Below, piece after piece: positions 4,860-51,030 of a DNA stretch of 64,000 nt. The notes below the pieces were generated by a model that searched no databases, was not told where the DNA came from, and saw nothing but the letters and a program-made list of their open reading frames with translations. Positions within the stretch are counted from its first letter, which is position 1. Every line of letters begins with the position of its first letter. The stretch is taken from the NCBI RefSeq assembly GCF_056712565.1, contig NZ_CM160072.1; one strand, given 5' to 3'. Position numbers and translations under genes: made by a program.

Positions 4860-4862
4860 ATT

Positions 4863-5573: not shown

Positions 5574-5576
5574 GCA

Positions 5577-6518
5577 TTAATTTATTTTTAATGAATGGTA
5601 ATCTCGTGAGTTGACCGAAGATTTGAGATAACTGCAATCATTAACCGACAGTATTGCCGCTAATAGGCGACATACCAGTGCCTGCATTTGCAGCAATATA
5701 TCGTTACCATATTGACTGTTGTTAACACTTGAGAAACCAAGCGGTTGACCAAAAAAAATAGCCTCATGAAAATTATCATTGCGGATGCCAGAAATGTTTT
5801 TTTTACCTGACACCCATGTGGGGATTGATAACCCATAAATTTTGCACATCCACTTTAATCGCTTGTAATGATTTGGCGGTTTTTTATCAGGAGCCTTGTC
5901 ATGCTCAGCCCACGACAAAGCAAAGCACCCATCAAGTGCCATGTAAAGATACTGGAATTTTTCAAAAGAAAGGTATTGTGGGTTTTGAGATAAGAATAGT
6001 GCATGCACCACTGCCGCAATTCTTTTGGGGGAGTGCGCATCCTTATGTTTGCCATTTATATAATTAAGAGCCAGTTCTATGACTTCTTTTTCAGAGCATC
6101 CAACGAGAATAAAGTCGGTTAACTTAGTGGGCTTGATAGTGGTTGCATCTAAAAAACCAGCGTCAGTGGTTGTCAATCTTATTCCCTTGAAAAAAGAAAG
6201 GCACCACACAATAAAGTTGAGAGTTTCTAACGAGGATGTATTTTTTAATTTTAGTGTGTGCGTTTTGGGCATACTGAATACTCGGTGACTATAAGGCATT
6301 GTGGATATGCCACCATTAAGGTTATATACATCTTGGTTTCCAGGGTATATCCAACCTTTCACAACGTTTTTATCATTATTAACACGCTCCACTTTCTCAT
6401 TGAGACCAGGTAAAGTAAGCAAAGAAAATTGTTCAGTCTCAATGTTAACTTCTACTGGATAGTATCCAAACTCCGACATAATCTCATTGGGTTGCTGTTC
6501 GTCAACTTCACCTTGCAT
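5577..6518 (-). CDS. hypothetical cargo protein, 313 aa, with RNxxxH motif (possible HEPN-like)
   Basis: AT-rich ORF unlike flanking phage DNA; motif GIRNDNFHEAIFF (R-x4-H) near C-terminus; no other recognisable domain. Confidence 0.6.
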   Translation of the reverse strand: MQGEVDEQQPNEIMSEFGYYPVEVNIETEQFSLLTLPGLNEKVERVNNDKNVVKGWIYPGNQDVYNLNGGISTMPYSHRVFSMPKTHTLKLKNTSSLETLNFIVWCLSFFKGIRLTTTDAGFLDATTIKPTKLTDFILVGCSEKEVIELALNYINGKHKDAHSPKRIAAVVHALFLSQNPQYLSFEKFQYLYMALDGCFALSWAEHDKAPDKKPPNHYKRLKWMCKIYGLSIPTWVSGKKNISGIRNDNFHEAIFFGQPLGFSSVNNSQYGNDILLQMQALVCRLLAAILSVNDCSYLKSSVNSRDYHSLKIN

Positions 6519-6541
6519 ATCTTTCTCCGTTCAAAAATAGG

Positions 6542-6557
6542 CTCGATAATTATCGAG
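6542..6557. promoter_or_regulatory. perfect 16-bp palindrome upstream of the 313-aa gene (candidate operator)
   Basis: CTCGATAATTATCGAG, 24-39 bp upstream of start codon at 6518 on reverse strand. Confidence 0.35.
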
Positions 6558-6755
6558 AGGCTATCATGTTTGGAAAGAACCAATGTCCGTAATTTTTGTA
6601 AATTTAAGGTGATTTATCAATAAATAAGCTGTGCATGCAACAGGTGCATGGTTCTGCATGCGCCGGGGTTACCCGTTTTGTACGTGCGCCGCAAGAGCTG
6701 GCGGGGATCCAGAGTGGTCATGCAACTGCATTAAAACCGCCCCATAAAGCGGGCA

Positions 6756-6774
6756 GGCGTGGCGGGGAAAGCAT
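6756..6774. other. cos: cos cohesive-end sequence, 186 type
   Basis: GGCGTGGCGGGGAAAGCAT equals the 19-nt 186 cohesive end as recalled (P2 GGCGAGGCGGGGAAAGCAC); in GC-rich non-coding stretch between A-side cargo and portal gene. Confidence 0.6.
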
Positions 6775-6993
6775 TGCGCGTCAGCAGTGATGCGTAATAA
6801 TAAAAATTATCCTCTGAGCGCGTCGTGATGGCGCTGTCGTGGTCGCTGCTGGTTCGTTGGTGGTCGGGTGTGTTCGTGCGCGTGAGACGCATCTGATGCG
6901 TGATGGTGGTGTGCATGGAAAAGCCACCAGGAGCAGCGGCTTTACAGGAGTGGCAGGATTCAAACTGCTAATTATGTTTCTACTATGATTAAA

Positions 6994-7998
6994 CTAATTT
7001 ACATGTATGTAGAGTTCACCGTCGCCAGACCAATCGGGACACTCTAAAACAAGCCCAAACTGCTTGAATATTTCATCAATGATTATTGTTATCTCCCGAA
7101 AATCACCAAAACCTGTAATGTGCTGGTCATTAAACTTCCCATAAAGATTCTGAAAAGCAATGCCTAATTCTGATAATTGATATCTTATCTTTGAGTTGGA
7201 TAGTGTAAGGGATAGCTTTGGATCGTATTCTTTAATATTGATGTTTAGAGAATGGACATAACCCATCGCATAAGCATAAGAGTTGATGATTAGCCTGATA
7301 CGTTTTTTTACTTCGAGATACATGTCATTCAGAGAAATATTACCGTACTTATAACCCCAGATGAGTTTTTCAATCTCGTCAGATACTTCATTTACAACAG
7401 TGTCAAGATTCTCTAAAAATAAATCGATAGTTTCTTGAGGGGCAGACCCCGAAGACATGTAATTAGCGAGATATTCAGACCATGCACGCGTGGCTGAGAT
7501 AAGAAGCGCGCTACCATACTCGTTGACTGTAAAGTTTTGGGCTAAGCATGTTAGTAAGTTTTTTTCATGTACGTGCACTAATTCATGGTGAATGCGATGG
7601 ATGACTGCGAGGTATCCTTCTTCTTTCAGTTTTAAGAAGCTACCATCATTGAAAAGCTCAACAAAAAAATCAATCGATAGCACAAGGGTATATTCTTCAC
7701 ATAGCCCATCATTGCCAATTTTTGTTACTAACTGCCCGACGGCTGCGCCCTGTTTACTATTGGTAAATGAACTAGGGGATTTGTGTTGGTAAGAGGATGT
7801 TACCTTTTGAAGAGCTTCACTGAAGTTATAGGAAACAATCACGCATTTTAATTTGGAGATATCAAGATTGAGATTTTTTGTTAAAGCTCGGATAGCTTCT
7901 AGTGTGAAATTACCGATATTATTTGCTTCTTGCTCAGTAGCGAAACCTTCGAGGGTTATTTTAAAATCAGTTTCCAAAATATTAATCTCCGCGCCCAT
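6994..7998 (-). CDS. hypothetical cargo protein, 334 aa, HExxH...E zinc-metallopeptidase-like motif
   Basis: AT-rich ORF between cos and portal gene; HELVH with Glu 22 residues after first His (gluzincin-like spacing). Confidence 0.6.
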   Translation of the reverse strand: MGAEINILETDFKITLEGFATEQEANNIGNFTLEAIRALTKNLNLDISKLKCVIVSYNFSEALQKVTSSYQHKSPSSFTNSKQGAAVGQLVTKIGNDGLCEEYTLVLSIDFFVELFNDGSFLKLKEEGYLAVIHRIHHELVHVHEKNLLTCLAQNFTVNEYGSALLISATRAWSEYLANYMSSGSAPQETIDLFLENLDTVVNEVSDEIEKLIWGYKYGNISLNDMYLEVKKRIRLIINSYAYAMGYVHSLNINIKEYDPKLSLTLSNSKIRYQLSELGIAFQNLYGKFNDQHITGFGDFREITIIIDEIFKQFGLVLECPDWSGDGELYIHVN

Positions 7999-15401: not shown

Positions 15402-15811
15402 AAATCCTGATAACGCTGCTGGTGCTGGCCGTGCTCGGGCTGCTGTGGTTGCGCCATGAGAACGGCAATTTATCCCGCTCCTTTGAGACGGCAAACCGCG
15501 TCGCAAGCGAACAAAAGACGACGATTGGCATGCTGAAAAATCAGCTCAGTGTTGCCGGTCAGCTTGCCCGACGTAATGAATCCGCGCAGGTGGAACTGCG
15601 CGAACAGCTCGCAAAGGCCAGCGCAGAGGCCAGCCGCCGTGAGCAGACGATAACGAGGTTACTTAATGAAAATGAAGCCTTTCGCCGCTGGTATAACGCT
15701 GCTTTGCCTGATGTTGTGCGTCGGCTGCACACCCGCACCGCCTGCGCCAGTGCCGGTGATTGTGGTCAGCGGATGCCCGAGGGTGAGCCTTTGTCCGATG
15801 CCGGGAAGTGA
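15398..15811 (+). CDS. lysB: i-spanin (Rz-like, P2 LysB-like)
   Basis: N-terminal TM helix ILITLLVLAVLGLLWL then coiled-coil region. Confidence 0.65.
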   Translation: MKILITLLVLAVLGLLWLRHENGNLSRSFETANRVASEQKTTIGMLKNQLSVAGQLARRNESAQVELREQLAKASAEASRREQTITRLLNENEAFRRWYNAALPDVVRRLHTRTACASAGDCGQRMPEGEPLSDAGK

Positions 15812-15956
15812 CCCGAAAACCAATGGTGACCTGAGCGCAGATATCCGCCGTCTTGAGGGCGCGCTGACCGCCTGCGCGCTGCAGGTTAAAACCGTCAAAC
15901 ACTGTCAGGATGAACTCGATGCAGAAGCACAAAAGCCTGCGCAAAGCGCTGATTAA
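15666..15956 (+). CDS. lysC: o-spanin lipoprotein (Rz1-like, P2 LysC-like), overlapping lysB out of frame
   Basis: Lipobox LMLCVGC, Pro-rich; overlaps the 3' part of lysB in a different frame. Confidence 0.6.
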   Translation: MKMKPFAAGITLLCLMLCVGCTPAPPAPVPVIVVSGCPRVSLCPMPGSDPKTNGDLSADIRRLEGALTACALQVKTVKHCQDELDAEAQKPAQSAD

Positions 15957-16386
15957 CGCCGTGCCGCAGCTCCGAAATAATCCCGATATGCTGCGCCTTT
16001 TTGCCGACAACGGCCATACCGATTCCCGACTGGCGAGCTCGCTGTCGTTTGAAAAGGTGTACGTGCTTAACGTGGTGGTGACTGACTTCACCGGTGACCT
16101 TGATTTGATATTCGTGCCGGTGCAGGCGTGGCTGCGTGAACATCAGCCGGACATTATGACCACCGACGACGGGCGGGAAAAAGGATTCACCTGGATTATT
16201 GATATCAATAACGACGATTCGCTCGATATCAGTATCAGCCTGAGGCTCACCGAGCGCACACTCGTCAAAGAGGTCGACGGCGCGCTGCACGTCAGCTATG
16301 CCCCTGAGCCGCCACTGCCTGAGCCGGTGACGCGCCCGGTCGAGCTGTACGTTAACGGCGAACTGGTGAGTAAGTGGGATGAGTGA
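15910..16386 (+). CDS. R: tail completion protein (P2 gpR family)
   Basis: 158 aa, order R-S. Confidence 0.7.
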   Translation: MNSMQKHKSLRKALINAVPQLRNNPDMLRLFADNGHTDSRLASSLSFEKVYVLNVVVTDFTGDLDLIFVPVQAWLREHQPDIMTTDDGREKGFTWIIDINNDDSLDISISLRLTERTLVKEVDGALHVSYAPEPPLPEPVTRPVELYVNGELVSKWDE

Positions 16387-16825
16387 ATTAACCGCGCTGC
16401 AGGAACGCCTTGCCGGTCTGATTGCCAGCCTGTCACCGGCGGCACGTCGGCAAATGGCGGCTGAGATTGCGAAAAAGCTGCGTACCAGTCAGCAACAGCG
16501 TATCAAGCGCCAGCAGGCACCCGACGGCACCCCGTATGCGGCACGAAAGCGCCAGCCGGTGCGGAGCAAGAAAGGTCGGATTAAACGTGAAATGTTCGCC
16601 AAACTGCGCACCAGTCGCTTTATGAAAGCCAAAGGCAGCGACAGTGCGGCGGTGGTGGAGTTTACCGGCAAGGTGCAGCGCATGGCGCGGGTTCATCAGT
16701 ACGGCCTCAAAGACCGGCCAAACCGTAACAGCCGGGATGTGCAGTACGAGGCGCGCCCGTTGCTCGGTTTCAATAGTATAGATATGAGAATTATTGAGCG
16801 GTTAATAATTGGGGCTTTGGATTAA
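16379..16825 (+). CDS. S: tail completion / virion morphogenesis protein (P2 gpS family); last ~18 codons AT-rich
   Basis: 148 aa; composition switches to AT-rich at about 16770. Confidence 0.7.
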   Translation: MSELTALQERLAGLIASLSPAARRQMAAEIAKKLRTSQQQRIKRQQAPDGTPYAARKRQPVRSKKGRIKREMFAKLRTSRFMKAKGSDSAAVVEFTGKVQRMARVHQYGLKDRPNRNSRDVQYEARPLLGFNSIDMRIIERLIIGALD

Positions 16826-16853
16826 TTATGATCTAATATATTATTTTGTGATG

Positions 16854-16880
16854 AGGCTGGATAAACACCAGCCTTGATTT
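16854..16880. terminator. hairpin between convergent S and HIT-family gene (bidirectional terminator candidate)
   Basis: GGCTGG-ataaacac-CAGCC followed by T-rich run. Confidence 0.4.
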
Positions 16881-17524
16881 TATAGTTTGAAATCTGCGTA
16901 ATTATCAATAACCTCTAGAACACCGCTGATGTTGTTATCTCTGCGCCAATTCCAATTGCCATGTATCAAATTTGCATTAGAATAAAGATATCTAAGGAAC
17001 TGAGATGGTAAGAGTGGTTTGTTGCATAAAAATTCATCATAACTATTACTCATATACCACACATATCCATTTTTAATGTCAAAACTTAAATTCTCACCTT
17101 CAATTTTCTTAAAGTTAATTTCTTTATTTAGAGCATTTTCAAACTCTTGTGTATAATAAACACAGTGTATATGAGCGTGAGAAATGCACCCTCCTGAACG
17201 ATCTATATTTTCACCTGCTCCGCTTTCAAAGAAAATTAGAGATCTACCAGATTGGTGGATTATAAATTCATTAAGTTCTCGCAGAATCTCCTTGCCATTA
17301 CTCCGGGTATCTCGATCAAGAGCAGCAAAGGAGTTGATATGCCGCTTAGGAATCAGCATCACATGCGAATTATTTAGCGGGCCAATACTAGGTACAATTA
17401 GAAAATCATTTGTTTCTGCAATGATATTTTTCTTGTCATTTACGATTTCATCGTATCCTTTGATAAGGCTAATGCCATTTATTTCATCGCATATTCCACA
17501 GAACGAATTACAAGAATTATTCAC
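16880..17524 (-). CDS. HIT-family (histidine triad) protein with ~80-aa C-terminal extension; cargo gene
   Basis: CNSFCGICDE, NSHVMLIPKRHI and histidine triad HAHIHCV; AT-rich. Confidence 0.7.
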   Translation of the reverse strand: MNNSCNSFCGICDEINGISLIKGYDEIVNDKKNIIAETNDFLIVPSIGPLNNSHVMLIPKRHINSFAALDRDTRSNGKEILRELNEFIIHQSGRSLIFFESGAGENIDRSGGCISHAHIHCVYYTQEFENALNKEINFKKIEGENLSFDIKNGYVWYMSNSYDEFLCNKPLLPSQFLRYLYSNANLIHGNWNWRRDNNISGVLEVIDNYADFKL

Positions 17525-40347: not shown

Positions 40348-40561
40348 ACCTATATAAGCGATACTAATCAAATCCTCACCGCGCCTCCCTATCCGGTGGC
40401 GCGAATGAACATCTTATCGACTGTCAAATCTGACACAGATGTAGCCATCCCATTGCTTAATCGAAAAAAAATCATACTATGCAGGCGCTAATTCCAGGAT
40501 GATAACGCCTTTTGGGCTAGTCATGCTGCTCATAAATCTGGTATACTTACCGTTACACATT

Positions 40562-40924
40562 GGGGCTGATTCTGGATTCGACGGGATTTGCGAAACCCAA
40601 GGTGCATGCCGAGGGGCGGTTGGCCTCGTAAAAAGCCGCAAAAAATAGTCGCAAACGACGAAAACTACGCTTTAGCAGCTTAATAACCTGCTTAGAGCCC
40701 TCTCTCCCTAGCCTCCGCTCTTAGGACGGGGATCAAGAGAGGTCAAACCCAAAAGAGATCGCGTGGAAGCCCTGCCTGGGGTTGAAGCGTTAAAACTTAA
40801 TCAGGCTAGTTTGTTAGTGGCGTGTCCGTCCGCAGCTGGCAAGCGAATGTAAAGACTGACTAAGCATGTAGTACCGAGGATGTAGGAATTTCGGACGCGG
40901 GTTCAACTCCCGCCAGCTCCACCA
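40562..40924 (+). ncRNA. ssrA: tmRNA (transfer-messenger RNA)
   Basis: Starts GGGGCTGATTCTGGATTCGACGGG, contains tag ORF region (GCAAACGACGAAAACTACGCTTTAGCAGCTTAA), ends GGGTTCAACTCCCGCCAGCTCCACCA; 363 nt. Confidence 0.9.
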
Positions 40925-41052
40925 ATCATGATTGGACGGTGTAAGGACAACACCAACAAAAACAGGAAGTTAGAAGTCTCAGCAGGACACCGACCAGACG
41001 GTGAGGAGACATAAAAGGATACGCAAAGGAGCCGCGGCTCCGAAGTGAAATG

Positions 41053-41077
41053 AAAGCCCGCTGATGCGGGCTTTTTT
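41053..41077 (+). terminator. intrinsic terminator downstream of ssrA
   Basis: AGCCCGC-tgat-GCGGGCT followed by TTTTTT. Confidence 0.55.
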
Positions 41078-41356
41078 GCTTCTTCTCTTTAGCCTGATTC
41101 GACACTCTCAATGCGGCCATAAACAACAACCCACTTTTCTTATACCGTAGCCTGTCCCCCTCTTCCTGCTTTCTAACCATAACAGATGTGAGCGTTTGCT
41201 ATGAGCGATATATAGTCATTCGTACCCTCCGATACTAATCATCACAGAAATTAATATATTCATTCCTTACTGAAAAGCTATGAAGTAGATATATAGGATT
41301 GGGGCGCGTATGGCACTGGACAGTTATGCATCTCCGAATATTATTCCGGAGCTAAG

Positions 41357-41361
41357 ACAAC
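41357..41361. repeat. IS2 target-site duplication, left copy (ACAAC)
   Basis: 5 bp ACAAC immediately left of IS2 terminus; identical copy at 42693-42697. Confidence 0.7.
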
Positions 41362-41452
41362 TAGACTGGCCCCCTGAATCTCCAGACAACCAATATCACT
41401 TATTTAAGTGATAGTCTTAATACTAGTTTTTAGACTAGTCATTGGAGAGCAG

Positions 41453-41818
41453 ATGATTGATGTCTTAGGACCGGAGAAACGCAGACGGCGTACCACACAG
41501 GAAAAGATCGCAATTGTTCAGCAGAGCTTTGAACCAGGGATGACGGTCTCCCTCGTTGCCCGGCAACATGGTGTAGCAGCCAGCCAGTTATTTCTCTGGC
41601 GTAAGCAATACCAGGAAGGAAGTCTTACTGCTGTCGCCGCCGGAGAACAGGTTGTTCCTGCCTCTGAACTTGCTGCCGCCATGAAGCAGATTAAAGAACT
41701 CCAGCGCCTGCTCGGCAAGAAAACGATGGAAAATGAACTCCTCAAAGAAGCCGTTGAATATGGACGGGCAAAAAAGTGGATAGCGCACGCGCCCTTATTG
41801 CCCGGGGATGGGGAGTAA
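41453..41818 (+). CDS. insC: IS2 OrfA (InsC, HTH transposase part)
   Basis: [56 protein letters not shown]... Confidence 0.85.
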
Positions 41819-42681
41819 GCTTAGTCAGCCGTTGTCTCCGGGTGTCGCGTGCGCAGTTGCACGTCATTCTCAGACGAACCGATGACTGGATGGATGGCCG
41901 CCGCAGTCGTCACACTGATGATACGGATGTGCTTCTCCGTATACACCATGTTATCGGAGAGCTGCCCACGTATGGTTATCGTCGGGTATGGGCGCTGCTT
42001 CGCAGACAGGCAGAACTTGATGGTATGCCTGCGATCAATGCCAAACGTGTTTACCGGATCATGCGCCAGAATGCGCTGTTGCTTGAGCGAAAACCTGCTG
42101 TACCGCCATCGAAACGGGCACATACAGGCAGAGTGGCTGTGAAAGAAAGTAATCAGCGATGGTGCTCTGACGGGTTCGAGTTCCGCTGTGATAACGGAGA
42201 AAAACTGCGAGTCACGTTCGCGCTGGACTGCTGTGACCGTGAGGCACTGCACTGGGCGGTCACTACGGGCGGCTTCAACAGTGAAACAGTACAGGACGTC
42301 ATGCTGGGAGCGGTGGAACGCCGCTTCGGCAACGAGCTTCCGGCGTCTCCAGTAGAGTGGCTGACGGATAATGGTTCATGCTACCGGGCTAATGAAACAC
42401 GGCAGTTTGCCCGGATGTTGGGGCTTGAACCGAAGAGCACGGCGGTGCGGAGTCCGGAGAGTAACGGCATAGCAGAGAGCTTCGTGAAAACGATAAAGCG
42501 TGACTACATCAGTGTCATGCCCAAACCAGACGGGTTAACGGCAGCAAAGAACCTTGCAGAGGCGTTCGAGCATTATAACGAATGGCATCCGCATAGTGCA
42601 CTGGGTTATCGCTCGCCACGGGAATATCTACGGCAGCAAGCCAGTAATGGGTTAAGTGATAACAGGTGTCTGGAAATATAG
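41776..42681 (+). CDS. insD: IS2 OrfB (InsD, DDE transposase catalytic part)
   Basis: 301 aa overlapping orfA in -1 frame, typical IS3-family arrangement. Confidence 0.85.
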
Positions 42682-42692
42682 GGGCAAATCCA

Positions 42693-42697
42693 ACAAC
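42693..42697. repeat. IS2 target-site duplication, right copy (ACAAC)
   Basis: See left copy. Confidence 0.7.
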
Positions 42698-42839
42698 CGA
42701 ATGCCGCAGCAGGTAAGATCACGCTAGGGGGGCTGGACAGAATGGCTGTTACGCCCAGTGTGAAGAAAAGAAGGCTAAGTATGGTAGAATTTCCATACGC
42801 ACAGACCTTGTTATCCGACTATACAGCCTGGAAGGCACT

Positions 42840-43628
42840 ATGACAAATCTACAACTGGAAGAAAGATTTAGGGCGCTTGAGAAAGATTACGATGCGCTCA
42901 TTTCCACAAAATATACTGCGCAGAACGTTCTCACTCACACTATGGAAACCTATGTTGATTCTGGTAAATATAAAAACTGGATCGCCAGAGTGAAAAAGTT
43001 AATAGAGGACAGCTACGGAAAAGAGTCTGATTATTACAATGACTTCAATACTGTAAACAGCAGGTGGTCTTCTAATTACAATACACTGATCAAAAGTTAT
43101 AAACCGTTGTTTGATGCGGCGAGAGATGATCTTGCGCACTCTGCTGTCAGTACTAATACTCCTCAAGAAGGTTCGCCGCTGAGCCTCGTACTTAATATTC
43201 TTAACAGGTTTCCGACCTTTGTTCGCCAGTTAAAGAGGCGGTACAACGGCCGTGCGCCGCTTGAAGTTAATGATGAGTATGACGTACAGGATTTGATTTA
43301 TGCACTGCTGACGCTTCATTTTAATGATATTAGGGCGGAAGAGTATACCCCCAGCTTTGCGGGCGCGGCCTCAAGACAGGACTTTCTTTTGAAAAAAGAG
43401 AAAATTGTGATAGAGGTGAAGAAAACCCGTGAATCTCTGGGAGCGGGTAAAGTTGGTGGAGAGTTGCTTATTGATATGGCGCGCTACCGCGCTCACCAAG
43501 ACTGCGATACGTTGATCTTGTTTGTATATGACCCGGATTGCTACATAAATAATCCTTTGGGCGTGAAAACCGATCTGGAATCTAAAGACGCGGAAGGAAA
43601 AGTGAAGGTTGTTATTGCGCAGTTCTGA
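42840..43628 (+). CDS. hypothetical protein with putative PD-(D/E)xK nuclease core in C-terminal half
   Basis: 262 aa; candidate motifs E-YDVQDLIYALL, RQDFLL and IVIEVKK (D...ExK); helical N-terminal half; motif-level call only. Confidence 0.55.
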   Translation: MTNLQLEERFRALEKDYDALISTKYTAQNVLTHTMETYVDSGKYKNWIARVKKLIEDSYGKESDYYNDFNTVNSRWSSNYNTLIKSYKPLFDAARDDLAHSAVSTNTPQEGSPLSLVLNILNRFPTFVRQLKRRYNGRAPLEVNDEYDVQDLIYALLTLHFNDIRAEEYTPSFAGAASRQDFLLKKEKIVIEVKKTRESLGAGKVGGELLIDMARYRAHQDCDTLILFVYDPDCYINNPLGVKTDLESKDAEGKVKVVIAQF

Positions 43629-43715
43629 CACGCTTAAGTGTCACCTTACAGGATTAGGTTTGCGGCCGTGCCAGCAGGACGAGCATGAAAAAGGCCGCTG
43701 GCACGGCCGGATTTG

Positions 43716-44009
43716 TCATCTTTGCCAGGTCAAATCAAAATCTACGTGAAAATCCGCAGGCTTAAGCTCGCAACTGCCACCACGCCCAATTAACGACGTT
43801 ATGTTTACAACGTTTGAACCTGTTGAGATGGCAAGTTGAGTGTCATCTGTAAACGTGATGATTAGCATTTCAGTCTGATGAACCTGTACTCCAGTTTTCT
43901 GAAAACCAATCTGGACAGATTTCACCGTTTTCCCAACCATTTCACGGGCTTGATTGATAGAGTAATTAGCTTCAACTTGTAGGTCATTCCTGAACTTGGG
44001 TAGTGTCAT
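43716..44009 (-). CDS. hypothetical small protein (97 aa), downstream of GIY-YIG gene on same strand
   Basis: ORF convergent with 42840-43628; 12-bp inverted repeat GGCCGTGCCAGC/GCTGGCACGGCC at 43664-43708 between them. Confidence 0.45.
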   Translation of the reverse strand: MTLPKFRNDLQVEANYSINQAREMVGKTVKSVQIGFQKTGVQVHQTEMLIITFTDDTQLAISTGSNVVNITSLIGRGGSCELKPADFHVDFDLTWQR

Positions 44010-44219
44010 TTTACATCCTCTTTAGTGAAGTTTTCGCTATTTAAATCAGCAGCATTCCTTTTAAATCACTGGCATGTCAGCAGTGGATAGTCTGAGTGTA
44101 ACGTCCAGTGAGGGGAATAAATATTGGTCAGACTTTGCACAAAAGAGCCAACTATCGCGGGCTCTCTCTCATCATGTGCGAAAATTGACCACAATATGAA
44201 ATCCAGTTCCATTCCGAAA

Positions 44220-45044
<825 letters not shown>

Positions 45045-45140
45045 TCAATTGACAACTTATAATCCCTACTAGTTAGCATTATGATTTCCAGAGTGAGGAA
45101 TATAAAAATCTCTGTTTCTGGCACATAACAGCCCTTAAGA

Positions 45141-45200
45141 TCGTAGCTCGCCATCATGGGGTGTCGGGGGGCGGAGGTTCAAATCCTCTCGTGCCGACCA
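45141..45200 (+). other. tRNA-Pro 3' fragment (about 60 nt, anticodon-stem to CCA end), att-like remnant, not a complete tRNA
   Basis: catggggtgtcggggggcggaggttcaaatcctctcgtgccgacca matches recalled proL 3' 46 nt with one mismatch; 5' acceptor/D-arm region diverged. Confidence 0.6.
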
Positions 45201-45213
45201 AAAATCCCTTAAG

Positions 45214-45241
45214 AACCAGCCTATTATGGCTGGTTTTTTTA
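45214..45241 (+). terminator. intrinsic terminator following the tRNA-Pro fragment
   Basis: AACCAGCC-tattat-GGCTGGTT followed by TTTTTTT. Confidence 0.6.
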
Positions 45242-45441
45242 TGATTGTTTTTTATGCGGAGAAATACCGGGGAATAATTGGGGTAAAACACCTTTAGGCT
45301 ATTCACTTAGCCTACCACCATCAAAATCTTTCCGAATGTATCCATCTCTTTTTTCTTATGCAGCTAAAACGAAGTCTTGATACTGTTTATTTACACAGAT
45401 AAGAATAATACTGTCTACAAACGCAGTACAAAAGAAGTGTT

Positions 45442-45620
45442 ATGCGTATTGAGATCTCCATAGCCAAAGACAAAATGACCAAATGCCAAACGGCGCTGTG
45501 GACGCGTTAAAGGAAGAATTAACCCAACACATTGGCAAGCGTTATGACGATGTGGAGATGATCGTAAAAGCCACCAGCAACGATAGTTTTTCAGTTAGAC
45601 ATACTGCAGATAAAGATTGA
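45442..45620 (+). pseudogene. DinI-like small gene with apparent frameshift (two overlapping short frames)
   Basis: [14 protein letters not shown] (frame 1, stop 45508-45510) continues in another frame as [37 protein letters not shown]; resembles DinI N-terminus from memory. Confidence 0.35.
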
Positions 45621-46044
45621 GCTAAAACTTTCGTTCAGGAAACTCTGAATGATACCTGAGAGTCTACTGAAGAGTTGTTTGTTCACTAGTTAGCACGTAG
45701 GAAATCATTCAATACTCGCACTATCGGAAGTTCACCAGCCAGTCGTAGCACGTCCTTGCAAACGACGTGCCTACGGTTTCAATCACCTCTCACCATCAAT
45801 TCTATCAATAATAATTAAACAGCGCCTAGACAAAATAAATAACAACAAGTCAACAACCTCGACAGGATGCCGATGGGATGATGAAGAGATAAGAAAGAAT
45901 AACCAGTAAAGCCCTAAAACGTCAGCGTTCAGACGCGTTTTTTACTTAATCGGTAACAAATACGTTGTATCATAGCAAAATAAAATGATTGTTCTAAATC
46001 AGATTAACTCCTCACTTTTGTACAATGTCGCTTACAGGTATACC

Positions 46045-47934
46045 ATGAAATCCGAGACGCTAACTGTCCAACAACTTTTTCAAGACCGCCGACAATACTG
46101 TGTTCCATTCTATCAACGTGCCTATGTATGGACTCAGCAAGACCAGTGGTCAGCTCTACTGGAGGATATCCTAGAGAAAGTACAATCCCGGCTCTCGGGT
46201 ACAAAACCAACTCCCCATTTCCTTGGTGCGGTTGTACTGGAACCTCAATCAAAAAAAGGATTATTAGGTGTAGATTCCATACATATTATTGATGGTCAGC
46301 AACGATTGACCACTCTTCAATATGTTCTGGCATCCATCCGATTAGCATTACGTGCTACGGATCTTTCCAGCTTAGAGGCTCTCATTTCGCCTTGCCTGAA
46401 AAACTCAAACGAAGACACAATGCGAAATAAAGAAGTAGAACGCTTCAAACTGTGGCCAACTTTTCGGGATCAAACTCATTTTATTCAAAGTTTTAATGTT
46501 GAAAATATTGACGATCTCCGGGACGTATTCTCTGATAGTTTCACGCAGCATGGTACGTTGCGTAAGCATTTTAATCACCCGCCATCACTAGAAGCATTAT
46601 GTTTTTTTACTGAAGCCTTTATAAAATGGATTAAAATAGAAAACCACTCACCACAAGAAAATGCTGTAGCTCTAATTGAGGCTGTCTTAACAGATCTGAA
46701 ACTGGTAAGCATATTTCTCGAAGCTGAAGATGATGCCCAAATAATTTTTGAAACATTAAATGGGCGAGGGGCGGAACTTCATGCTACGGATCTTATTCGC
46801 AACTATATCTTTATGTGCGCTGAGCATGAAAATATTAATGCTATTGAATTATATGAAAATGAGTGGAAGAGCTTTGAAGATAAATACTGGTCGGAAAAAC
46901 AACGCCGTGGACGTATTAATAAACCACGCATGGAGTGGCTAGTACATGCGACATTGCAATCAGAAAGGCAACGTGAAATTGATCTGTCTCGCCTTTACAA
47001 TGAGTATCGTGATTATGTAAGTAAGGACTTGTCTTCACAACGAGCAGATCTGCAAGTAAAGCGCCTCAAACAATATGCATCACAATATAAAGAATTGGTT
47101 GATGGTTTTGGCACAACCCCCATCTCACACTTTGGATATCGCATCGCAGACTATGATGTGACGACACTTTATCCGCTTGCTTTGTTCATTTCGATAGCTA
47201 ACATCGCTGATGATGAGAAAGCAGCCATGTATAATGATCTTGTCTCCTACGTAGTACGAAGAGCCGTATGTGGCCTGACGCCAAAGAATTACAACAATGT
47301 ATTTATGAATGTATTGCGGCACTTGGCTAAAACGGAAATTTCCAGTGTTGAGTTACGTAATATCCTCAATAACTTAAATGGCGAAGCCTCACGTTGGCCT
47401 GGTGACTCAGAATTTCTCAACGCTTGCATCAATGCTCCACTTTATCCTGGCAGGCTCGACGCACCGAAAATGCGCTCAATGTTAACGGAACTTGAAAGAG
47501 AACTTTGTCGCCAAGTAAAGACAGAAAAGCCTGATGTTCCAAATCTTTCTAATCTCGATATCGATCATCTTATGCCTCAAAGTTGGTATTCCTGTTGGCC
47601 TCTCGAAAATGGTCGTATGGTGACAAATTCAGATGCTACGGTATTGAACCAAATTGTTCTGTCTGGAACCGATCTTACCCCTGAACAGCTACTGGTAAGG
47701 AAACGGCAACAAGCGATATCTACTTTGGGAAATCTAACTTTGCTTAACCTTAGCGTAAACCGTTCTGTTCAGAATGCTGTATTTCTGAAAAAACGTGATG
47801 CTCTCATCGTCCACACCAATCTACGACTGAACATTCCACTTATAGTTAAGGATAAATGGGATGAGGATGAAATCCTGGAGCGGGGTAAAAAGTTGGGGGA
47901 AATTGCATTGAAAGTATGGCCAAAACACGATTAA
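46045..47934 (+). CDS. GmrSD-family type IV (modification-dependent) restriction endonuclease-like protein (DUF262 + DUF1524/HNH)
   Basis: N-terminal YCVPFYQRAYVW and DGQQR (DUF262/ParB-like); C-terminal DIDHLMPQSW (His-Me/HNH-like); start taken at ATG 46045. Confidence 0.7.
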   Translation: MKSETLTVQQLFQDRRQYCVPFYQRAYVWTQQDQWSALLEDILEKVQSRLSGTKPTPHFLGAVVLEPQSKKGLLGVDSIHIIDGQQRLTTLQYVLASIRLALRATDLSSLEALISPCLKNSNEDTMRNKEVERFKLWPTFRDQTHFIQSFNVENIDDLRDVFSDSFTQHGTLRKHFNHPPSLEALCFFTEAFIKWIKIENHSPQENAVALIEAVLTDLKLVSIFLEAEDDAQIIFETLNGRGAELHATDLIRNYIFMCAEHENINAIELYENEWKSFEDKYWSEKQRRGRINKPRMEWLVHATLQSERQREIDLSRLYNEYRDYVSKDLSSQRADLQVKRLKQYASQYKELVDGFGTTPISHFGYRIADYDVTTLYPLALFISIANIADDEKAAMYNDLVSYVVRRAVCGLTPKNYNNVFMNVLRHLAKTEISSVELRNILNNLNGEASRWPGDSEFLNACINAPLYPGRLDAPKMRSMLTELERELCRQVKTEKPDVPNLSNLDIDHLMPQSWYSCWPLENGRMVTNSDATVLNQIVLSGTDLTPEQLLVRKRQQAISTLGNLTLLNLSVNRSVQNAVFLKKRDALIVHTNLRLNIPLIVKDKWDEDEILERGKKLGEIALKVWPKHD

Positions 47935-48029
47935 TGCAATTAATAAAATGATTATAGTGGCCTTACATTAGTAAGGCCGCTACTCACTATTAAATACTTT
48001 AATTTGCATCAAGAACAGCAGTGTCAGCC

Positions 48030-48158
48030 CTAGGTCTCGGACTTTGTACCGCTTATCTTGTCTTCAAAAATCAGCTCGCATCCTGCACAGTTCAGCGCAT
48101 TACGTTGTAGATCTGTGTTCTGGTCATTTGTTGACACACGTACATAGCCAATAAGCAT
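48030..48158 (-). pseudogene. pin: truncated serine DNA invertase gene (Pin/Gin family), N-terminal 42 codons only
   Basis: MLIGYVRVSTNDQNTDLQRNALNCAGCELIFEDKISGTKSET then TAG; matches recalled Pin/Gin N-terminus incl. catalytic Ser region; RBS GGGAGA upstream. Confidence 0.7.
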
Positions 48159-48184
48159 GGTAGATCTCCCTGACAAAAGCAGGA

Positions 48185-48679
48185 ATGATGCCATTTGCTC
48201 GTTATTTCTGCATTTTCATAAACGTTGGTTTGGGAGAAGGCTCTGCATTACCTGTTGGTGTGCCTGTTCCATGGCCTTCAGCCACACCGCCAACAGGCTG
48301 GCTGAAATGCAACGGTGCGGCTTTTTCTGCTGAAGAATACCCGGAACTGGCAAAGGCTTATCCGACAAATAAATTGCCTGATTTACGTGGTGAGTTTATT
48401 CGTGGCTGGGATGATGGGCGCGGCGTTGATTCAAGGCGTGCGGTGCTGTCAACACAAGAGCCAACTGTAGGTACTTTTTATGTGGAGCTAGCTATCATCT
48501 CGGGAACTTTGAGCGGCTCAGGTGCTAAATTTACCGATTCAGTAGGGATTGGATCAACCAGTAGTAACATTACCGTTAGCAACGGTAATGACCAGTCCGT
48601 GTCGGGTACAGTGGCCGTTAACCCCGTCGATACCCGTCCACGCAACATTGCATTTAACTATATCGTGAGAGCAGCATAA
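48185..48679 (+). CDS. silent alternative tail-fibre C-terminal (variable) segment inside invertible region
   Basis: PSATPPTGWLKCNGAAF...TRPRNIAFNYIVRAA shared with P2-family H C-terminus (21280-21730); no own N-terminal domain. Confidence 0.6.
   Translation: MMPFARYFCIFINVGLGEGSALPVGVPVPWPSATPPTGWLKCNGAAFSAEEYPELAKAYPTNKLPDLRGEFIRGWDDGRGVDSRRAVLSTQEPTVGTFYVELAIISGTLSGSGAKFTDSVGIGSTSSNITVSNGNDQSVSGTVAVNPVDTRPRNIAFNYIVRAA
48213..48238. repeat. gix-like inversion crossover site (left boundary of invertible tail-fibre segment)
   Basis: TTTTCATAAACG-TT-GGTTTGGGAGAA; 15-bp core TTGGTTTGGGAGAAG is exact inverted repeat of 50139-50153; half-site resembles Gin/Pin site TTATCCAAAACC. Confidence 0.55.
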
Positions 48680-49281
48680 TGGATAAAGCAATATTAAATA
48701 GTGGACTTGTTGCTACAAAGGCAGGGGATATTACCGTTTATAACTATGATGGTGAAACTCGGGAATATATTTCCACTTCAAGTGAATATCTTGCCGTTGG
48801 TGTTGGTATCCCGGCATATTCCTGTCTGGATGCACCAGGTATACATAAGGCGGGTTATGCTATCTGTCGTTCTGTGAATTTAAATTCATGGGAATATGTG
48901 CCAGACCATCGCGGTGAAATCGTCTATAACACCGAAACGGGAGAATCAAAACAAATCACAGCACCGGGTGATTACCCCGAAAATACAACCACTATTGCCC
49001 CATTAACGCCATACGATAAATGGGATGGTGAGAAATGGGTGACCGATACTGAGGCACAGCATAGCGCCGCAGTAGACGCGGCAGAAGCACAGCGTCAGTC
49101 ACTGATTGATGCTGCAATGGCTTCCATCGGTCTGATTCAGCTGAAATTACAGGCCGGACGGAAGCTGATGCAGGCAGAAACAACCCGGCTTAACGCTGTG
49201 CTGGATTACATTGACGCGGTGACGGCAACAAATACCAGCACAGCGCCGGATGTCATCTGGCCTGAACTGCCGGAGGCGTAG
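48679..49281 (+). CDS. tail fibre assembly protein (alternative copy, inside invertible segment)
   Basis: N-terminus ATKAGDITVYNYDGETRE near-identical to gpG-like protein at 21732. Confidence 0.65.
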   Translation: MDKAILNSGLVATKAGDITVYNYDGETREYISTSSEYLAVGVGIPAYSCLDAPGIHKAGYAICRSVNLNSWEYVPDHRGEIVYNTETGESKQITAPGDYPENTTTIAPLTPYDKWDGEKWVTDTEAQHSAAVDAAEAQRQSLIDAAMASIGLIQLKLQAGRKLMQAETTRLNAVLDYIDAVTATNTSTAPDVIWPELPEA

Positions 49282-49696
49282 GCCATTCAATATCTGGCGC
49301 ACAGGAAGTATCGACCAGTTCCAGTGCGTCCAGATAATCCAGCCACGAATTATATTGCGCCAGTTCCTCGCCTTTCAGACGACCAATAGCAGCTTTGCCA
49401 GGCCACTGATGGGTATTGATGTAGGTATTGACTTCTGAAACCAAAGATATTTTTTTCATTTCAGCCGTCAACACCTCATCCTCTTTTGAAGGGGGTGGGG
49501 AATTAATCCATACTGGCCGTCCTGAACTGTCAGCGCCAATTTCTTTCCCTTCTGGATGCAGACCAAGAAATTGCTCATATGTTTCTCTGGTAATTTCAAT
49601 AACATCATCAGGAAGCGTTCCCGCATCCTCATATTCTGGAAACAATTCTTGCAGATAAAAACTTTTACTTCCGGGTGAAAAGAATACTGAGTTCAT
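49253..49696 (-). CDS. tail fibre assembly protein (expressed orientation)
   Basis: 147 aa with C-terminal ...LDALELVDTSCAPDIEWPTPP typical Tfa ending. Confidence 0.65.
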   Translation of the reverse strand: MNSVFFSPGSKSFYLQELFPEYEDAGTLPDDVIEITRETYEQFLGLHPEGKEIGADSSGRPVWINSPPPSKEDEVLTAEMKKISLVSEVNTYINTHQWPGKAAIGRLKGEELAQYNSWLDYLDALELVDTSCAPDIEWPTPPAVQAR

Positions 49697-49698
49697 TA

Positions 49699-50442
49699 TT
49701 ACCGTCCAATGATTAACGCTGAGACGCTGGTATCTGAAGGAAAGGCTGCATTCAGTGGTTTGTCGACTTTGAACACAATCGTATTATTCCCCCTGACAGC
49801 GGCAAAAGAACAAACCGCCGTCGCGTATGAACCTGTAATATTACTGGATACACCACCATAAGCTGTTGTTGATACCAGAGGGATAACGCCCAGCACCTTA
49901 TTAGGAAATACAAAGGGCAATGTGGCTGTGGCAATATAAGACTTATTAGAACCTGTGATGGCATAAGCATTATCAGTCATTCCATTCATCGCCACTGGGC
50001 CGCTTATACTTACAGTAACCATCTGAATGATTAGCCCGTCAGGTTGACGAATCACAAAATTTCCATTGCCACCAGTAACCGTCCAGAAAGACATATCAGG
50101 GATTTGGTTTTCCCCGTTGCCCACATTCCGTTTTGCCGCTTCTCCCAAACCAAGGTTTTCGAGAGCCGTTTTCACCGTGCCGTCCGATTTGATATCGCTA
50201 AACGGATTCTTGCGGCTTAACAGCAGCGCACGAAGCGCGGTAAGCAGCTGGTCGTGCCGCGCCTTCTCCAGACTGGCACCGGATGCCTCCACCACGCTGC
50301 AGAGTTCTTCCTGCAACATGTCAAAGTAGTCATCATCCAGATCGGTGGCAGGCGTGCCTGTCTGGGGGTTACCACGGGTAAAACCGTTCTTACCCGCGCC
50401 GAACTTATCCTTCTGCGCGGTTTTCGTGTCTATACGATGCAT
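49699..50442 (-). CDS. tail fibre protein (constant N-terminal part + current variable C-terminal part)
   Basis: 247 aa; gix-like site lies inside the gene at codons around [10 protein letters not shown]. Confidence 0.65.
50140..50165. repeat. gix-like inversion crossover site (right boundary, inside tail-fibre gene)
   Basis: TTCTCCCAAACC-AA-GGTTTTCGAGAG. Confidence 0.55.
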
Positions 50443-50445
50443 GGA

Positions 50446-51030
50446 TTACTCCGGATATTTAAAAATTACGTAGGTATGCGAAGGGCAGAGTTTGTTAAGC
50501 ACACATTCGACGACGGTGTCGCCCCAGATACGCAGCGCGGAATCACAGGGATCGCCACATGTCATCCAGGTGCTGTTGGTGGCGGCTGGCATGTTGACCT
50601 GCCAGTAATACCGCCATTCCGGCGCATTCACCGCGTCAGTACAGGCCGATGAGCAGGTGAACGTGCTTTTGTCGTATCGCGTGATGGTGGCGTCTGGTCT
50701 GCCCAGGGCAGCAAGCTGTGCAAGGTAAAAATCCTCATTGATGCCGCCCGCCAGGTTAACCTTCGCATCCAGTCGTTGCTGACGCTGGCGAAGGGTCTGT
50801 GTTCCTGCGGGAATACATTCATCCGGCAGGCCGCACAGACGCTCCCAGCGATTTATCAGTTCGGTGGTGGTGCGCGGATCCAGCTCCCGCATCAGGGCAT
50901 CCGCACGCTGATGAACGCGGGTTAATGACTGTGCCGCACCGGCAATCGCCGGATCGCTGGCTGACCACGCCGGACCGGGCGGCAGCAGTGCCGACAACAG
51001 ACGGATGTAATCATCGTTTGTCACGCCCAT
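50446..51030 (-). CDS. Mu gp48-like tail protein (DUF2313-like)
   Basis: 194 aa between baseplate J and tail fibre genes. Confidence 0.55.

What the first reader, a model, noticed from the sequence alone, without database searches (positions are those of the whole stretch)
46045..48158. GmrSD-like type IV restriction gene abutting a truncated pin invertase gene (e14 pin-mcrA-like arrangement)
A DUF262+DUF1524 (HNH-like) protein of the GmrSD/modification-dependent restriction type sits directly beside the stump of a Pin/Gin-type invertase. This resembles the e14 element, where pin is followed by the type IV enzyme mcrA, but with a different enzyme family, suggesting this prophage terminus is a swap site for anti-modified-DNA nucleases. 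The insertion appears to have removed all but 42 codons of pin.
Basis: partly seen in the sequence, partly recalled or inferred. Interest (0 to 1): 0.5.

Follow-up and report, generated by a model that had tools for sequence, protein, structure and literature searches.

The report
Known GmrSD nuclease replacing prophage invertase
This is the already characterised E. coli UTI89 GmrSD enzyme, which cuts the sugar-modified DNA of T-even phages; it sits in an e14-like prophage where its gene cassette has overwritten most of the pin invertase gene, in a slot that related prophages fill with other nucleases of the same kind.

Summary
The ORF at 46045-47934 (+) encodes 629 aa with GmrSD_N and GmrSD_C domains. 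A 42-codon pin stump lies at 48158-48030 (-).

The gene is not new. Its DNA is 100% identical to UTI89, and it carries the same protein accession, WP_000834402.1. That is the published "UT" GmrSD, which restricts T2, T6 and RB69 but not T4, and is insensitive to IPI*. Its position beside prophage tail-fibre genes and an invertase-like ORF is also published.

The comparative reading holds:
- **Same junction elsewhere:** the stump/GmrSD junction occurs in about 300 of 5,426 complete E. coli genomes, at ssrA, icd and next to paoD.
- **Direct swap at icd:** in strain A8 the cassette replaces exactly mcrA plus the 3' three-quarters of pinE of K-12 e14.
- **Other occupants:** relatives with intact pinE carry McrA (330 genomes) or PD-T4-3/CMoRE (578). 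Both are also type IV nucleases against modified cytosine.
- **A second type IV enzyme here:** the window also encodes CMoRE, 100% identical to PDB 9U7U.

The invertible tail-fibre segment occurs in both orientations among identical prophages that all carry the stump. This implies an invertase supplied in trans.

Verdict: ordinary and already known, inside a mildly interesting exchange slot.

The parts
46045..47934 (+). GmrSD type IV restriction endonuclease gene, 629 aa. Identical to UTI89_C2960 / EcoUTI89GmrSD (the 'UT enzyme'), WP_000834402.1.
   Evidence: Pfam GmrSD_N + GmrSD_C. PADLOC mREase_IV full length. DGQQR at 83 and D507/H508; N522 counted by hand. 100% DNA identity to UTI89 and same protein accession.
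45781..46044 (+). Upstream part of the conserved GmrSD cassette; presumed promoter/leader, not demonstrated. Strain A8 shares it only from 45841.
   Evidence: Conserved together with the gene in L002, L003 and L016. The promoter scan gave nothing above the shuffled background.
45700..45780 (.). 80-nt block at the left edge of the cassette. In strain S163-2 it lies immediately 3' of the stop codon of an intact pinE.
   Evidence: It also follows dinI in phages PhiR63_1 and 2H10, so its origin is ambiguous.
47955..47982 (+). 12-bp-stem hairpin directly after the GmrSD stop codon; likely terminator between the convergent GmrSD gene and pin stump.
   Evidence: The 81-nt stretch containing it folds at -26.2 kcal/mol, z = -6.8 against shuffles.
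48030..48158 (-). pin (PinE-type serine invertase) stump: 42 codons plus TAG. It keeps the Ser10 region but lacks the rest of the catalytic domain and the DNA-binding domain. DNA homology to pin extends to about 48013.
   Evidence: Annotated as an incomplete recombinase pseudogene in RefSeq.
48220..48239 (.). Left crossover site of the invertible segment. It contains TTGGTTTGGGAGAAGG, the e14 P-segment inversion site.
   Evidence: Inverted repeat I1. Exact inversion breakpoint against UTI89. Site sequence given in PMC12529663.
50139..50158 (.). Right crossover site, the inverted copy.
48220..50158 (.). Invertible tail-fibre segment (P-segment type). It holds two alternative tail-fibre C-terminal parts and two tail-fibre assembly genes. 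It is found in both orientations among otherwise identical prophages.
44220..44993 (-). PD-T4-3 / CMoRE, a GIY-YIG type IV nuclease specific for 5hmC/5ghmC. It is a second enzyme against modified cytosine in the same cargo region.
   Evidence: PADLOC PD-T4-3, E 8.6e-137. 100% identical to PDB 9U7U, APEC O1 CMoRE. WP_000353910.1.
45442..45659 (+). DinI-like pseudogene between CMoRE and the GmrSD cassette.
   Evidence: RefSeq annotation transferred from IHE3034 and UTI89.
42840..43628 (+). 262-aa cargo protein with a C-terminal REase_DpnII-MboI nuclease-like domain; uncharacterised.
   Evidence: Pfam PF18742, E 4.5e-48. PADLOC Aga_Helical-REase, C-terminal part only.
40893..41077 (+). Left copy of the att repeat: the last 32 nt of ssrA plus 153 nt. 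It is repeated beyond the integrase at the far end of the prophage.
   Evidence: 90.8% match to IHE3034 3096648-3096826. Integrase at the far end.

Best explanation
The gene encodes the single-chain GmrSD type IV restriction endonuclease already studied as the UTI89 'UT enzyme'. It is carried as cargo at the tail-fibre end of an e14/SfII-like prophage integrated at ssrA.

How the enzyme works (from literature on this family, with the sequence features verified here):
- The N-terminal DUF262 domain (ParB/Srx-like, DGQQR motif) binds and hydrolyses NTP.
- The C-terminal DUF1524 domain is a His-Me/HNH nuclease (D507, H508, N522) that cuts DNA carrying hydroxymethyl- or glycosyl-hydroxymethyl-cytosine.
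- A lysogen therefore destroys incoming T-even-type phage DNA while its own unmodified DNA is spared.

How the arrangement arose (inferred from comparisons). A cassette of about 2.2 kb (45781 to about 48012) replaced roughly codons 46-184 of the prophage's pin invertase gene, leaving a dead 5' stump. This happened once, long ago. The cassette-plus-stump module then spread among e14-like prophages at several chromosomal sites by homologous recombination in the conserved flanks. Related prophages hold McrA or CMoRE at the same position. The position therefore works as an exchange slot for defence genes, mostly type IV nucleases.

The invertible tail-fibre segment is intact and still switches, presumably through an invertase supplied in trans.
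For: Identity and domains. Published activity of the identical protein: it restricts T2 and T6 (PMC4437046) and RB69 (PMC6024577), does not restrict T4, and is insensitive to IPI*. The catalytic D507/H508/N522 were shown by mutagenesis in the 93%-identical Eco94GmrSD.

Prophage cargo: att repeats at ssrA and beyond the integrase enclose the region.

Single old truncation: the same stump junction occurs in three allele groups (>=99%, about 96.6%, about 93.5% identity) at ssrA, next to paoD and at icd.

Replacement of pin: right-hand homology to pinE ends at about codon 45-49. The left cassette edge matches the 80 nt just 3' of an intact pinE stop.

Swap with mcrA at icd: A8 4472-7258 corresponds to K-12 3403-4986, between flanks of 97.7% and 90% identity.

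Serial turnover: GPT24-02 keeps the stump and the last 59 nt of GmrSD but has a different 445-aa gene upstream.

Slot occupancy: pinE-mcrA 330 genomes, pinE-CMoRE 578, pin'-GmrSD about 300, out of 1,715 genomes with an e14-like ymfQ tail.

Inversion after truncation: UTI89 and the window differ only by an exact flip of 48220-50158. 22 genomes have the window orientation and at least 60 the UTI89 orientation, all with identical flanks. PinQ/PinR invert the e14 P segment in trans at the same site sequence (PMC12529663).
Against: - No expression data for this strain, and no promoter found above background.
- No isolated phage in the phage collection carries the cassette, so whether the prophage is active is unknown.
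- The 80-nt left-flank block also occurs 3' of dinI in lambdoid phages, so it does not prove that the left breakpoint lies at the pin stop codon.
- The slot is not exclusive to type IV enzymes, and some e14-like prophages have no pin at all.
- The trans-acting invertase in ST95 strains was not identified. Most of these genomes show no second PinE-type sequence (places_in_record = 1).
Confidence: 0.9

Rival explanations
1. The DUF262/DUF1524 protein is not a stand-alone restriction enzyme. It would instead be an accessory of a larger system, like BrxU with BREX or SspE with Ssp phosphorothioation.
For: PADLOC also gives weak N-terminal matches to SspE models and moderate matches to Orf5/HEC-06 models. 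The family does include such accessory members.
Against: The best model is stand-alone mREase_IV, matched over the full length at 1415 bits. No BREX, Ssp or Dnd genes are among the neighbours. The identical protein restricts phage when cloned alone (PMC4437046).
Confidence: 0.03
2. The gene is a silent relic in a decaying cryptic prophage, and the stump merely marks random decay rather than an exchange slot.
For: A pin pseudogene, a dinI pseudogene and an IS2 lie in the cargo region. CMoRE of APEC O1 is only weakly active from its native promoter. No free phage with the cassette is known.
Against: The 629-codon ORF is intact and identical in more than 100 genomes. The prophage has a complete set of head, tail, lysis, regulatory and integrase genes. 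The same junction is conserved across alleles that are 4-10% diverged, at three chromosomal sites. The slot holds defined alternative defence genes in hundreds of genomes.
Confidence: 0.05
3. pin was truncated by an unrelated deletion, and GmrSD arrived separately as two events. Alternatively, GmrSD is ancestral at this position and the intact-pin prophages are the derived state.
For: The 80-nt left-flank block is also found in other contexts. In strain A8 the cassette begins at 45841 rather than 45700.
Against: Every GmrSD-bearing locus examined has the identical stump junction. No locus was found with GmrSD next to an intact pin or with the stump lacking any GmrSD sequence; GPT24-02 still keeps 59 nt of GmrSD. 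Intact pinE genes are full-length, conserved serine recombinases, so they cannot derive from the stump.
Confidence: 0.1
4. The two orientations of the tail-fibre segment reflect a single flip early in the ST95 lineage, or assembly choices, rather than continuing inversion by a trans-acting invertase.
For: No second PinE-type gene was detectable in most of these genomes. No phylogeny was built here.
Against: The breakpoints lie exactly at the 20-nt crossover repeats. Both orientations occur within several strain series from the same studies, namely the N, GN, AH21, MS and FDAARGOS series. Trans inversion of the e14 P segment by PinQ/PinR is documented.
Confidence: 0.3

Closest known systems
EcoUTI89GmrSD (UTI89_C2960, the 'UT enzyme')
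   Same: Identical: 100% DNA identity over 46045-48036 and the same RefSeq protein, WP_000834402.1. Same prophage, same ssrA site, same stump.
   Different: Only the orientation of the adjacent invertible tail-fibre segment and an IS2 upstream in the window.
Eco94GmrSD (STEC_94C) and EcoCT596GmrS/GmrD, the prototype GmrSD enzymes
   Same: 629 aa, reported as 93% identical. Same D507/H508/N522 catalytic residues and DGQQR motif. Also prophage-borne next to tail-fibre genes, and for CT596 next to an invertase-like ORF.
   Different: Different phage range. CT596 and Eco94 restrict T4 lacking IPI and are blocked by IPI*. The UT allele is IPI*-insensitive, does not restrict T4, and restricts T2, T6 and RB69.
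e14 pinE-mcrA terminus of E. coli K-12
   Same: Same prophage family: ymfQ and the tail-fibre constant part are about 95% identical. Same P-type invertible segment and crossover sequence. A type IV nuclease sits beside pin at the att-proximal end. Strain A8 shows allelic replacement at the icd site itself.
   Different: In K-12 pinE is intact and mcrA is co-directional with it. Here pin is a stump and GmrSD converges on it. The enzyme fold and specificity differ: McrA acts on 5mC/5hmC, GmrSD on hmC/glycosyl-hmC. The window prophage is at ssrA, not icd.
PD-T4-3 / CMoRE (GIY-YIG type IV enzyme)
   Same: It occupies the same slot, directly beside intact pinE, in 578 genomes. It targets 5hmC/5ghmC DNA of T-even phages (PMC12923530). 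It is also present in the window at 44220-44993.
   Different: Unrelated fold: a GIY-YIG domain plus a sensing domain, forming a tetramer. It restricts T4 as well as T2 and T6.
BrxU and SspE (GmrSD-family members of BREX and Ssp islands)
   Same: DUF262 plus a C-terminal nuclease architecture.
   Different: Distant in sequence: no PDB hit to BrxU or SspE at E <= 1, and only weak N-terminal SspE model matches. No BREX or Ssp neighbours.
Defence hotspots of P2 and P4 prophages and satellites (Rousset et al. 2022, cited from my own knowledge)
   Same: A fixed position in a temperate-phage genome where alternative anti-phage genes replace one another between conserved flanks.
   Different: A different phage family and position (next to pin and the att site). 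The occupants here are dominated by type IV nucleases against modified cytosine.

Membership tests
GmrSD family type IV restriction endonucleases | N-terminal DUF262/GmrSD_N domain with a conserved DGQQR motif | tested here: met
   PF03235, residues 8-256, E 6.8e-34. IIDGQQRLTT, with DGQQR starting at residue 83.
GmrSD family type IV restriction endonucleases | C-terminal DUF1524/GmrSD_C His-Me (HNH-like) nuclease domain with the D-H...N catalytic residues | tested here: met
   PF07510, residues 451-619, E 9.4e-20. D507 and H508 located by script. N522 counted by hand from the printed sequence. These are the positions mutated in Eco94GmrSD.
GmrSD family type IV restriction endonucleases | Modification-dependent cleavage of hmC/glycosyl-hmC DNA and restriction of T-even phages | not testable with these tools
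   Reported for the identical UTI89 protein and for the 93%-identical Eco94GmrSD (PMC4437046, PMC6024577).
Pin/Gin/Hin/Cin serine DNA invertases | Complete resolvase-type catalytic domain, of which the Ser10 nucleophile region is only the start | tested here: not met
   Only residues 1-44 are present (95% identical to PinE). Intact PinE has 184 aa.
Pin/Gin/Hin/Cin serine DNA invertases | C-terminal helix-turn-helix DNA-binding domain | tested here: not met
   tblastn with four PinE proteins finds no further Pin-like segment in 45001-48300.
Din-type invertible tail-fibre segment (e14 P segment type) | Inverted crossover sites flanking alternative tail-fibre C-termini and assembly genes | tested here: met
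   20-nt inverted repeat, 95% complementary, at 48220-48239 / 50139-50158, containing the e14 site TTGGTTTGGGAGAAGG. ORFs and PHROG tail-fibre matches.
Din-type invertible tail-fibre segment (e14 P segment type) | Both orientations occur in nature | tested here: met
   Exact flip against UTI89. 22 genomes in one orientation and at least 60 in the other.
Din-type invertible tail-fibre segment (e14 P segment type) | Fis-dependent enhancer about 100 bp from one crossover site | tested here: inconclusive
   Two G-N13-C motifs centred at 48081 and 48130, 49 bp apart, lie inside the stump. The Hin enhancer is 65 bp long and lies about 100 bp from hix (PMC3798978). No binding data.
e14 element | Integration in icd | tested here: not met
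   The window prophage is at ssrA. Relative A8, with the same cassette, is at icd.
e14 element | ymfQ / stfP / tfa / pin late-region module | tested here: met
   K-12 e14 matches 50114-51000 at 95.0% and 48037-48433 at 94.7%.
BREX-associated BrxU or Ssp-associated SspE | Location within a BREX or Ssp/Dnd gene cluster | tested here: not met
   The neighbours are CMoRE, a dinI pseudogene, the pin stump and tail-fibre genes.

The most novel reading that the evidence does not exclude
The pin-proximal end of e14/SfII-like prophages may be an exchange slot that is preferentially filled by type IV nucleases against modified cytosine. McrA, CMoRE and GmrSD would account for about 1,200 of the roughly 1,700 E. 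coli genomes that carry this prophage family. The cassettes would be swapped by homologous recombination between the att-side flank and the pin 5' end / crossover site.

The 5' stump of pin may persist because it holds the cis-acting Fis enhancer. That would keep tail-fibre switching possible through invertases supplied in trans by other prophages (PinQ/PinR type). I found no description of this slot in the searchable literature.
Probability: 0.4. Interest if true: 0.4.

Novelty: already known. Interest (0 to 1): 0.2.

Why it matters
The enzyme itself adds nothing new. It is a textbook type IV restriction enzyme with a published phage range.

The context has some value:
- **Allelic occupants of one slot.** Three mechanistically unrelated nucleases that all sense modified cytosine (McrA, CMoRE, GmrSD) are alternative occupants of one position in one widespread E. 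coli prophage family. ST95 pathogens stack two of them.
- **Relevance to phage therapy.** CMoRE restricts T2, T4 and T6. The UT GmrSD restricts T2, T6 and RB69 and ignores the T4 inhibitor IPI*. This bears on predicting T-even phage susceptibility of ExPEC/APEC strains.
- **Where to look for new defence genes.** Slot occupants without a known function, such as the three ORFs in strain 0-4 and the 445-aa gene in GPT24-02, are candidates.

Tried and rejected
- **NCBIfam:** no hit for GmrSD, CMoRE or the two small cargo proteins.
- **PDB sequence search with GmrSD:** only a weak N-terminal match to 9JFL, with no BrxU or SspE. I did not model the structure, because the protein is a known enzyme.
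- **Promoter/terminator consensus scan of 45000-48300:** counts were no higher than in shuffled sequence, so I name no promoter.
- **Rfam on 40400-48400:** only tmRNA. Nothing was found for the 80-nt flank block.
- **Phage collection:** no record holds the cassette. Only the pin 5' end and the 80-nt block match.
- **Four pin-containing hits turned out to be P2-like prophages**. There the invertible cassette lies between tail-fibre and sheath genes, not at a terminus, so they say nothing about the e14-type slot. E. coli B has an independent 240-nt pin stump there.
- **Trans-acting invertase in ST95 genomes:** I could not look for one, because the tools do not allow a search restricted to chosen genomes.
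- **Literature search for a described e14 defence hotspot:** nothing relevant was returned. This is absence in that library only.
- **Unknown cargo:** PADLOC gave no hit for the cargo of strain 0-4, and only marginal hits for the 445-aa GPT24-02 protein.
Full report
**1. What is at the coordinates**

The window is E. coli chromosome of the ST95 type. The stretch 45300-48700 is 100% identical to IHE3034, PMV-1, APEC O1 and others.

The ORF at 46045-47934 (+) encodes 629 aa. It has Pfam GmrSD_N (residues 8-256, E 6.8e-34) and GmrSD_C (residues 451-619, E 9.4e-20). It matches PADLOC's type IV model mREase_IV from end to end at 1415 bits. DGQQR starts at residue 83, and the nuclease residues fall at D507, H508 and N522 (N522 counted by hand).

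On the other strand, 48158-48030 encodes MLIGYVRVSTNDQNTDLQRNALNCAGCELIFEDKISGTKSET*. Intact PinE proteins match residues 1-44 at 95% identity (E 6e-25). Nothing else Pin-like exists between 45001 and 48300. An alignment with intact pinE genes and with other stumps shows nucleotide homology to about 48013. It also shows a 1-nt deletion that creates the TAG at codon 43. RefSeq annotates the same two features.

**2. Identity of the enzyme**

D507, H508 and N522 are the residues shown by mutagenesis to be needed for cleavage in Eco94GmrSD, a 629-aa enzyme (PMC4437046). That paper describes a 93%-identical homologue, UTI89_C2960, the "UT enzyme". The window's 46045-48036 is 100% identical to the UTI89 chromosome. 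UTI89 and IHE3034 carry the same protein accession, WP_000834402.1. The gene is therefore the UT enzyme itself.

Published properties:
- It is a single-chain enzyme, insensitive to the T4 inhibitor IPI*.
- It does not restrict T4 with or without IPI, but restricts T2, T6 and other T-even phages. It also restricts RB69, which carries arabinosyl-hmC (PMC6024577).
- For the family, the DUF262 domain is proposed to be a ParB/Srx-like NTPase, and the DUF1524 domain the HNH-type nuclease (PMC4619093).

He et al. state that the Eco94, UTI89 and APEC O1 genes lie in prophages directly beside tail-fibre genes. Machnicka et al. report that the prototype CT596 gmrS/gmrD genes have tail-fibre assembly and phage invertase-like ORFs as nearest neighbours. 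The gene, its function and its neighbourhood are therefore already in the literature.

**3. The element that carries it**

ssrA lies at 40562-40924. A 185-nt stretch, made of the last 32 nt of ssrA plus 153 nt, is repeated at 90.8% identity beyond the integrase gene about 43 kb away in IHE3034.

Between these repeats lies a complete prophage with an HK97-like head, a Mu/e14-like tail, and lysis, regulatory and integrase genes. Its tail-fibre end faces ssrA. The cargo region between att and the tail fibres contains, in order:
- an IS2 that is specific to the window (41362-42692, 5-bp target duplication);
- a 262-aa protein with a REase_DpnII-MboI domain;
- a 97-aa ORF without matches;
- PD-T4-3 on the minus strand (44220-44993);
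- a dinI pseudogene;
- the GmrSD cassette;
- the pin stump.

PD-T4-3 was recently characterised as CMoRE, a type IV enzyme that degrades 5hmC and 5ghmC DNA and protects against T2, T4 and T6 (PMC12923530). The window protein is 100% identical to the crystallised APEC O1 CMoRE, PDB 9U7U. This prophage end therefore carries two characterised type IV enzymes.

**4. How pin was lost**

- The block 45700-48239 is shared by prophages next to paoD: strain LAU-OXA at 96.2% and strain S3 at 90.4%. An icd-integrated prophage in strain A8 shares it at 91%, from 45841. All have the same stump junction.
- Altogether 305 of 5,426 complete genomes hold the gene, in three allele groups. The truncation is therefore a single old event that has travelled with the cassette.
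- The left 80 nt of the block (45700-45780) match the 80 nt immediately 3' of the stop codon of an intact pinE in strain S163-2. This fits a replacement of roughly pin codons 46-184 by about 2.2 kb. The same 80 nt also follow dinI in two lambdoid phages, so this point is suggestive, not proven.
- A strong hairpin (47955-47982) follows the GmrSD stop codon. The 81-nt stretch containing it folds at -26.2 kcal/mol, z = -6.8. GmrSD and the stump are convergent, whereas mcrA and pinE in e14 are co-directional.

**5. The e14 comparison and the swap-site idea**

K-12 e14 shares the late region with the window: about 95% identity over ymfQ and the tail-fibre constant part, and 94.7% over the pin 5' end and crossover site.

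Strain A8 has a full e14-like prophage at icd. Compared with K-12, the sequences are 97.7% identical up to just past the icd fragment and 90% identical from pin codon 45 onward. Between these flanks, K-12 has mcrA plus the 3' three-quarters of pinE (1.58 kb), while A8 has the GmrSD cassette (2.8 kb). This is a direct allelic replacement.

Prophages of the same family with intact pinE carry the following next to pin:
- CMoRE, in O157:H7, 21B8, strain 3036, and GPEC1210 and O103 WL1467 at ssrA; the last two also carry a type II R-M system;
- a Ppl-like ATPase, in S163-2;
- unknown ORFs, in strain 0-4.

S3 has a type IIG/ISP R-M enzyme beside GmrSD. GPT24-02 keeps the stump and the last 59 nt of GmrSD, but a 445-aa gene of unknown function has overwritten the rest. 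This shows serial turnover at the position.

Junction-specific searches count pinE-mcrA in 330 genomes (many are K-12 derivatives), pinE-CMoRE in 578 and pin'-GmrSD in about 300, against 1,715 genomes with the e14-type ymfQ module. Some family members lack pin altogether.

The three common occupants are all type IV enzymes against modified cytosine, although the slot is not exclusive to them.

**6. Consequence for the invertible segment**

The 20-nt inverted repeats at 48220-48239 and 50139-50158 contain TTGGTTTGGGAGAAGG, the crossover sequence of the e14 P segment (PMC12529663).

UTI89 differs from the window only by an exact inversion of 48220-50158. The flanks are 100% identical. Among prophages with identical flanks and the same stump, 22 genomes have the window orientation and at least 60 the UTI89 orientation. 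Both orientations occur within several strain series from the same studies.

Because the truncation predates the divergence of the allele groups, the inversion must be more recent than the loss of pin. It therefore needs an invertase supplied in trans. PinQ and PinR of lambdoid prophages invert the e14 P segment in trans. I could not identify the responsible gene in ST95 genomes. Most of them show no second PinE-type sequence, but PinQ/PinR-type genes would not be detected by that search.

In the Hin system the 65-bp Fis enhancer lies about 100 bp from a crossover site (PMC3798978). Two G-N13-C motifs 49 bp apart lie at the corresponding place inside the stump. The idea that the stump preserves the enhancer is an untested inference.

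**7. Verdict**

- The enzyme is a known, characterised protein in a context that has been described, so the finding is "already known" and of low interest.
- The proposed T4-based assay would be misleading for this allele.
- The comparative picture deserves a systematic census: an exchange slot beside pin dominated by three unrelated type IV nucleases, two of them stacked in ST95 strains, with continued tail-fibre switching despite a dead cis invertase. I found no description of it in the searchable literature.

Noticed in passing
window 44220-44993 (-): PD-T4-3/CMoRE gene, 100% identical to the crystallised APEC O1 enzyme (PDB 9U7U). Its orientation is opposite to that of the pinE-adjacent CMoRE alleles in O157:H7 and GPEC1210, to which it is about 75% identical at the nucleotide level. 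The published weak activity of the APEC O1 allele from its native promoter may relate to this displaced context.
   Followed up: partly
window 41362-42692: IS2 insertion (InsC- and InsD-like ORFs) with a 5-bp target duplication between ssrA and the cargo genes. It is absent from IHE3034.
   Followed up: yes
window 42840-43628 (+) and 43716-44009 (-): A 262-aa protein with a C-terminal REase_DpnII-MboI domain (PF18742, E 4.5e-48; PHROG 29450, function unknown) and a 97-aa ORF with no match. Both are uncharacterised cargo next to the att site and possible defence genes.
   Followed up: partly
window 48220-50158 compared with L018 (UTI89) 2921-4859: The tail-fibre segment is flipped exactly at the crossover repeats between prophages that are otherwise identical and all carry the dead pin. 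This implies a trans-acting invertase that was not identified.
   Followed up: partly
window 48081 and 48130 (motif centres), inside the pin stump: Two Fis-like G-N13-C motifs 49 bp apart, about 100 and 150 bp from the crossover site. This is where the recombinational enhancer lies in the Hin system, so the stump may preserve a cis enhancer.
   Followed up: partly
window 45700-45780; L015 6389-6467; L020 558-637: An 80-nt block found at the left edge of the GmrSD cassette, directly 3' of intact pinE in strain S163-2, and 3' of dinI in phages PhiR63_1 and 2H10. There is no Rfam match and its role is unknown; it may be a recombination junction or a terminator.
   Followed up: partly
L004 (GPT24-02) 5643-7161: A 445-aa gene of unknown function (only marginal Lit-like and PD-Lambda-2_B hits) has replaced GmrSD but left its last 59 nt and the pin stump. 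It lies in a different phage backbone at argW.
   Followed up: partly
L024 (strain 0-4) 3607-5331: Three unannotated ORFs (343, 114 and 70 aa) occupy the slot between ssrA and an intact pinE. None has a PADLOC hit, which makes them candidate unknown defence cargo.
   Followed up: partly
L010 (E. coli B derivative AS19) 4897-5136: An independent pin truncation (240 nt retained) in a P2-like prophage remnant, fused to a truncated VgrG/Pvc8-family (contractile injection system) pseudogene.
   Followed up: no
L009 (IHE3034) 15627-17497: Three genes, including one for a STAS-like domain protein, lie between the prophage integrase and the right att repeat. They may be a second cargo region at the other end of the prophage.
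   Followed up: no
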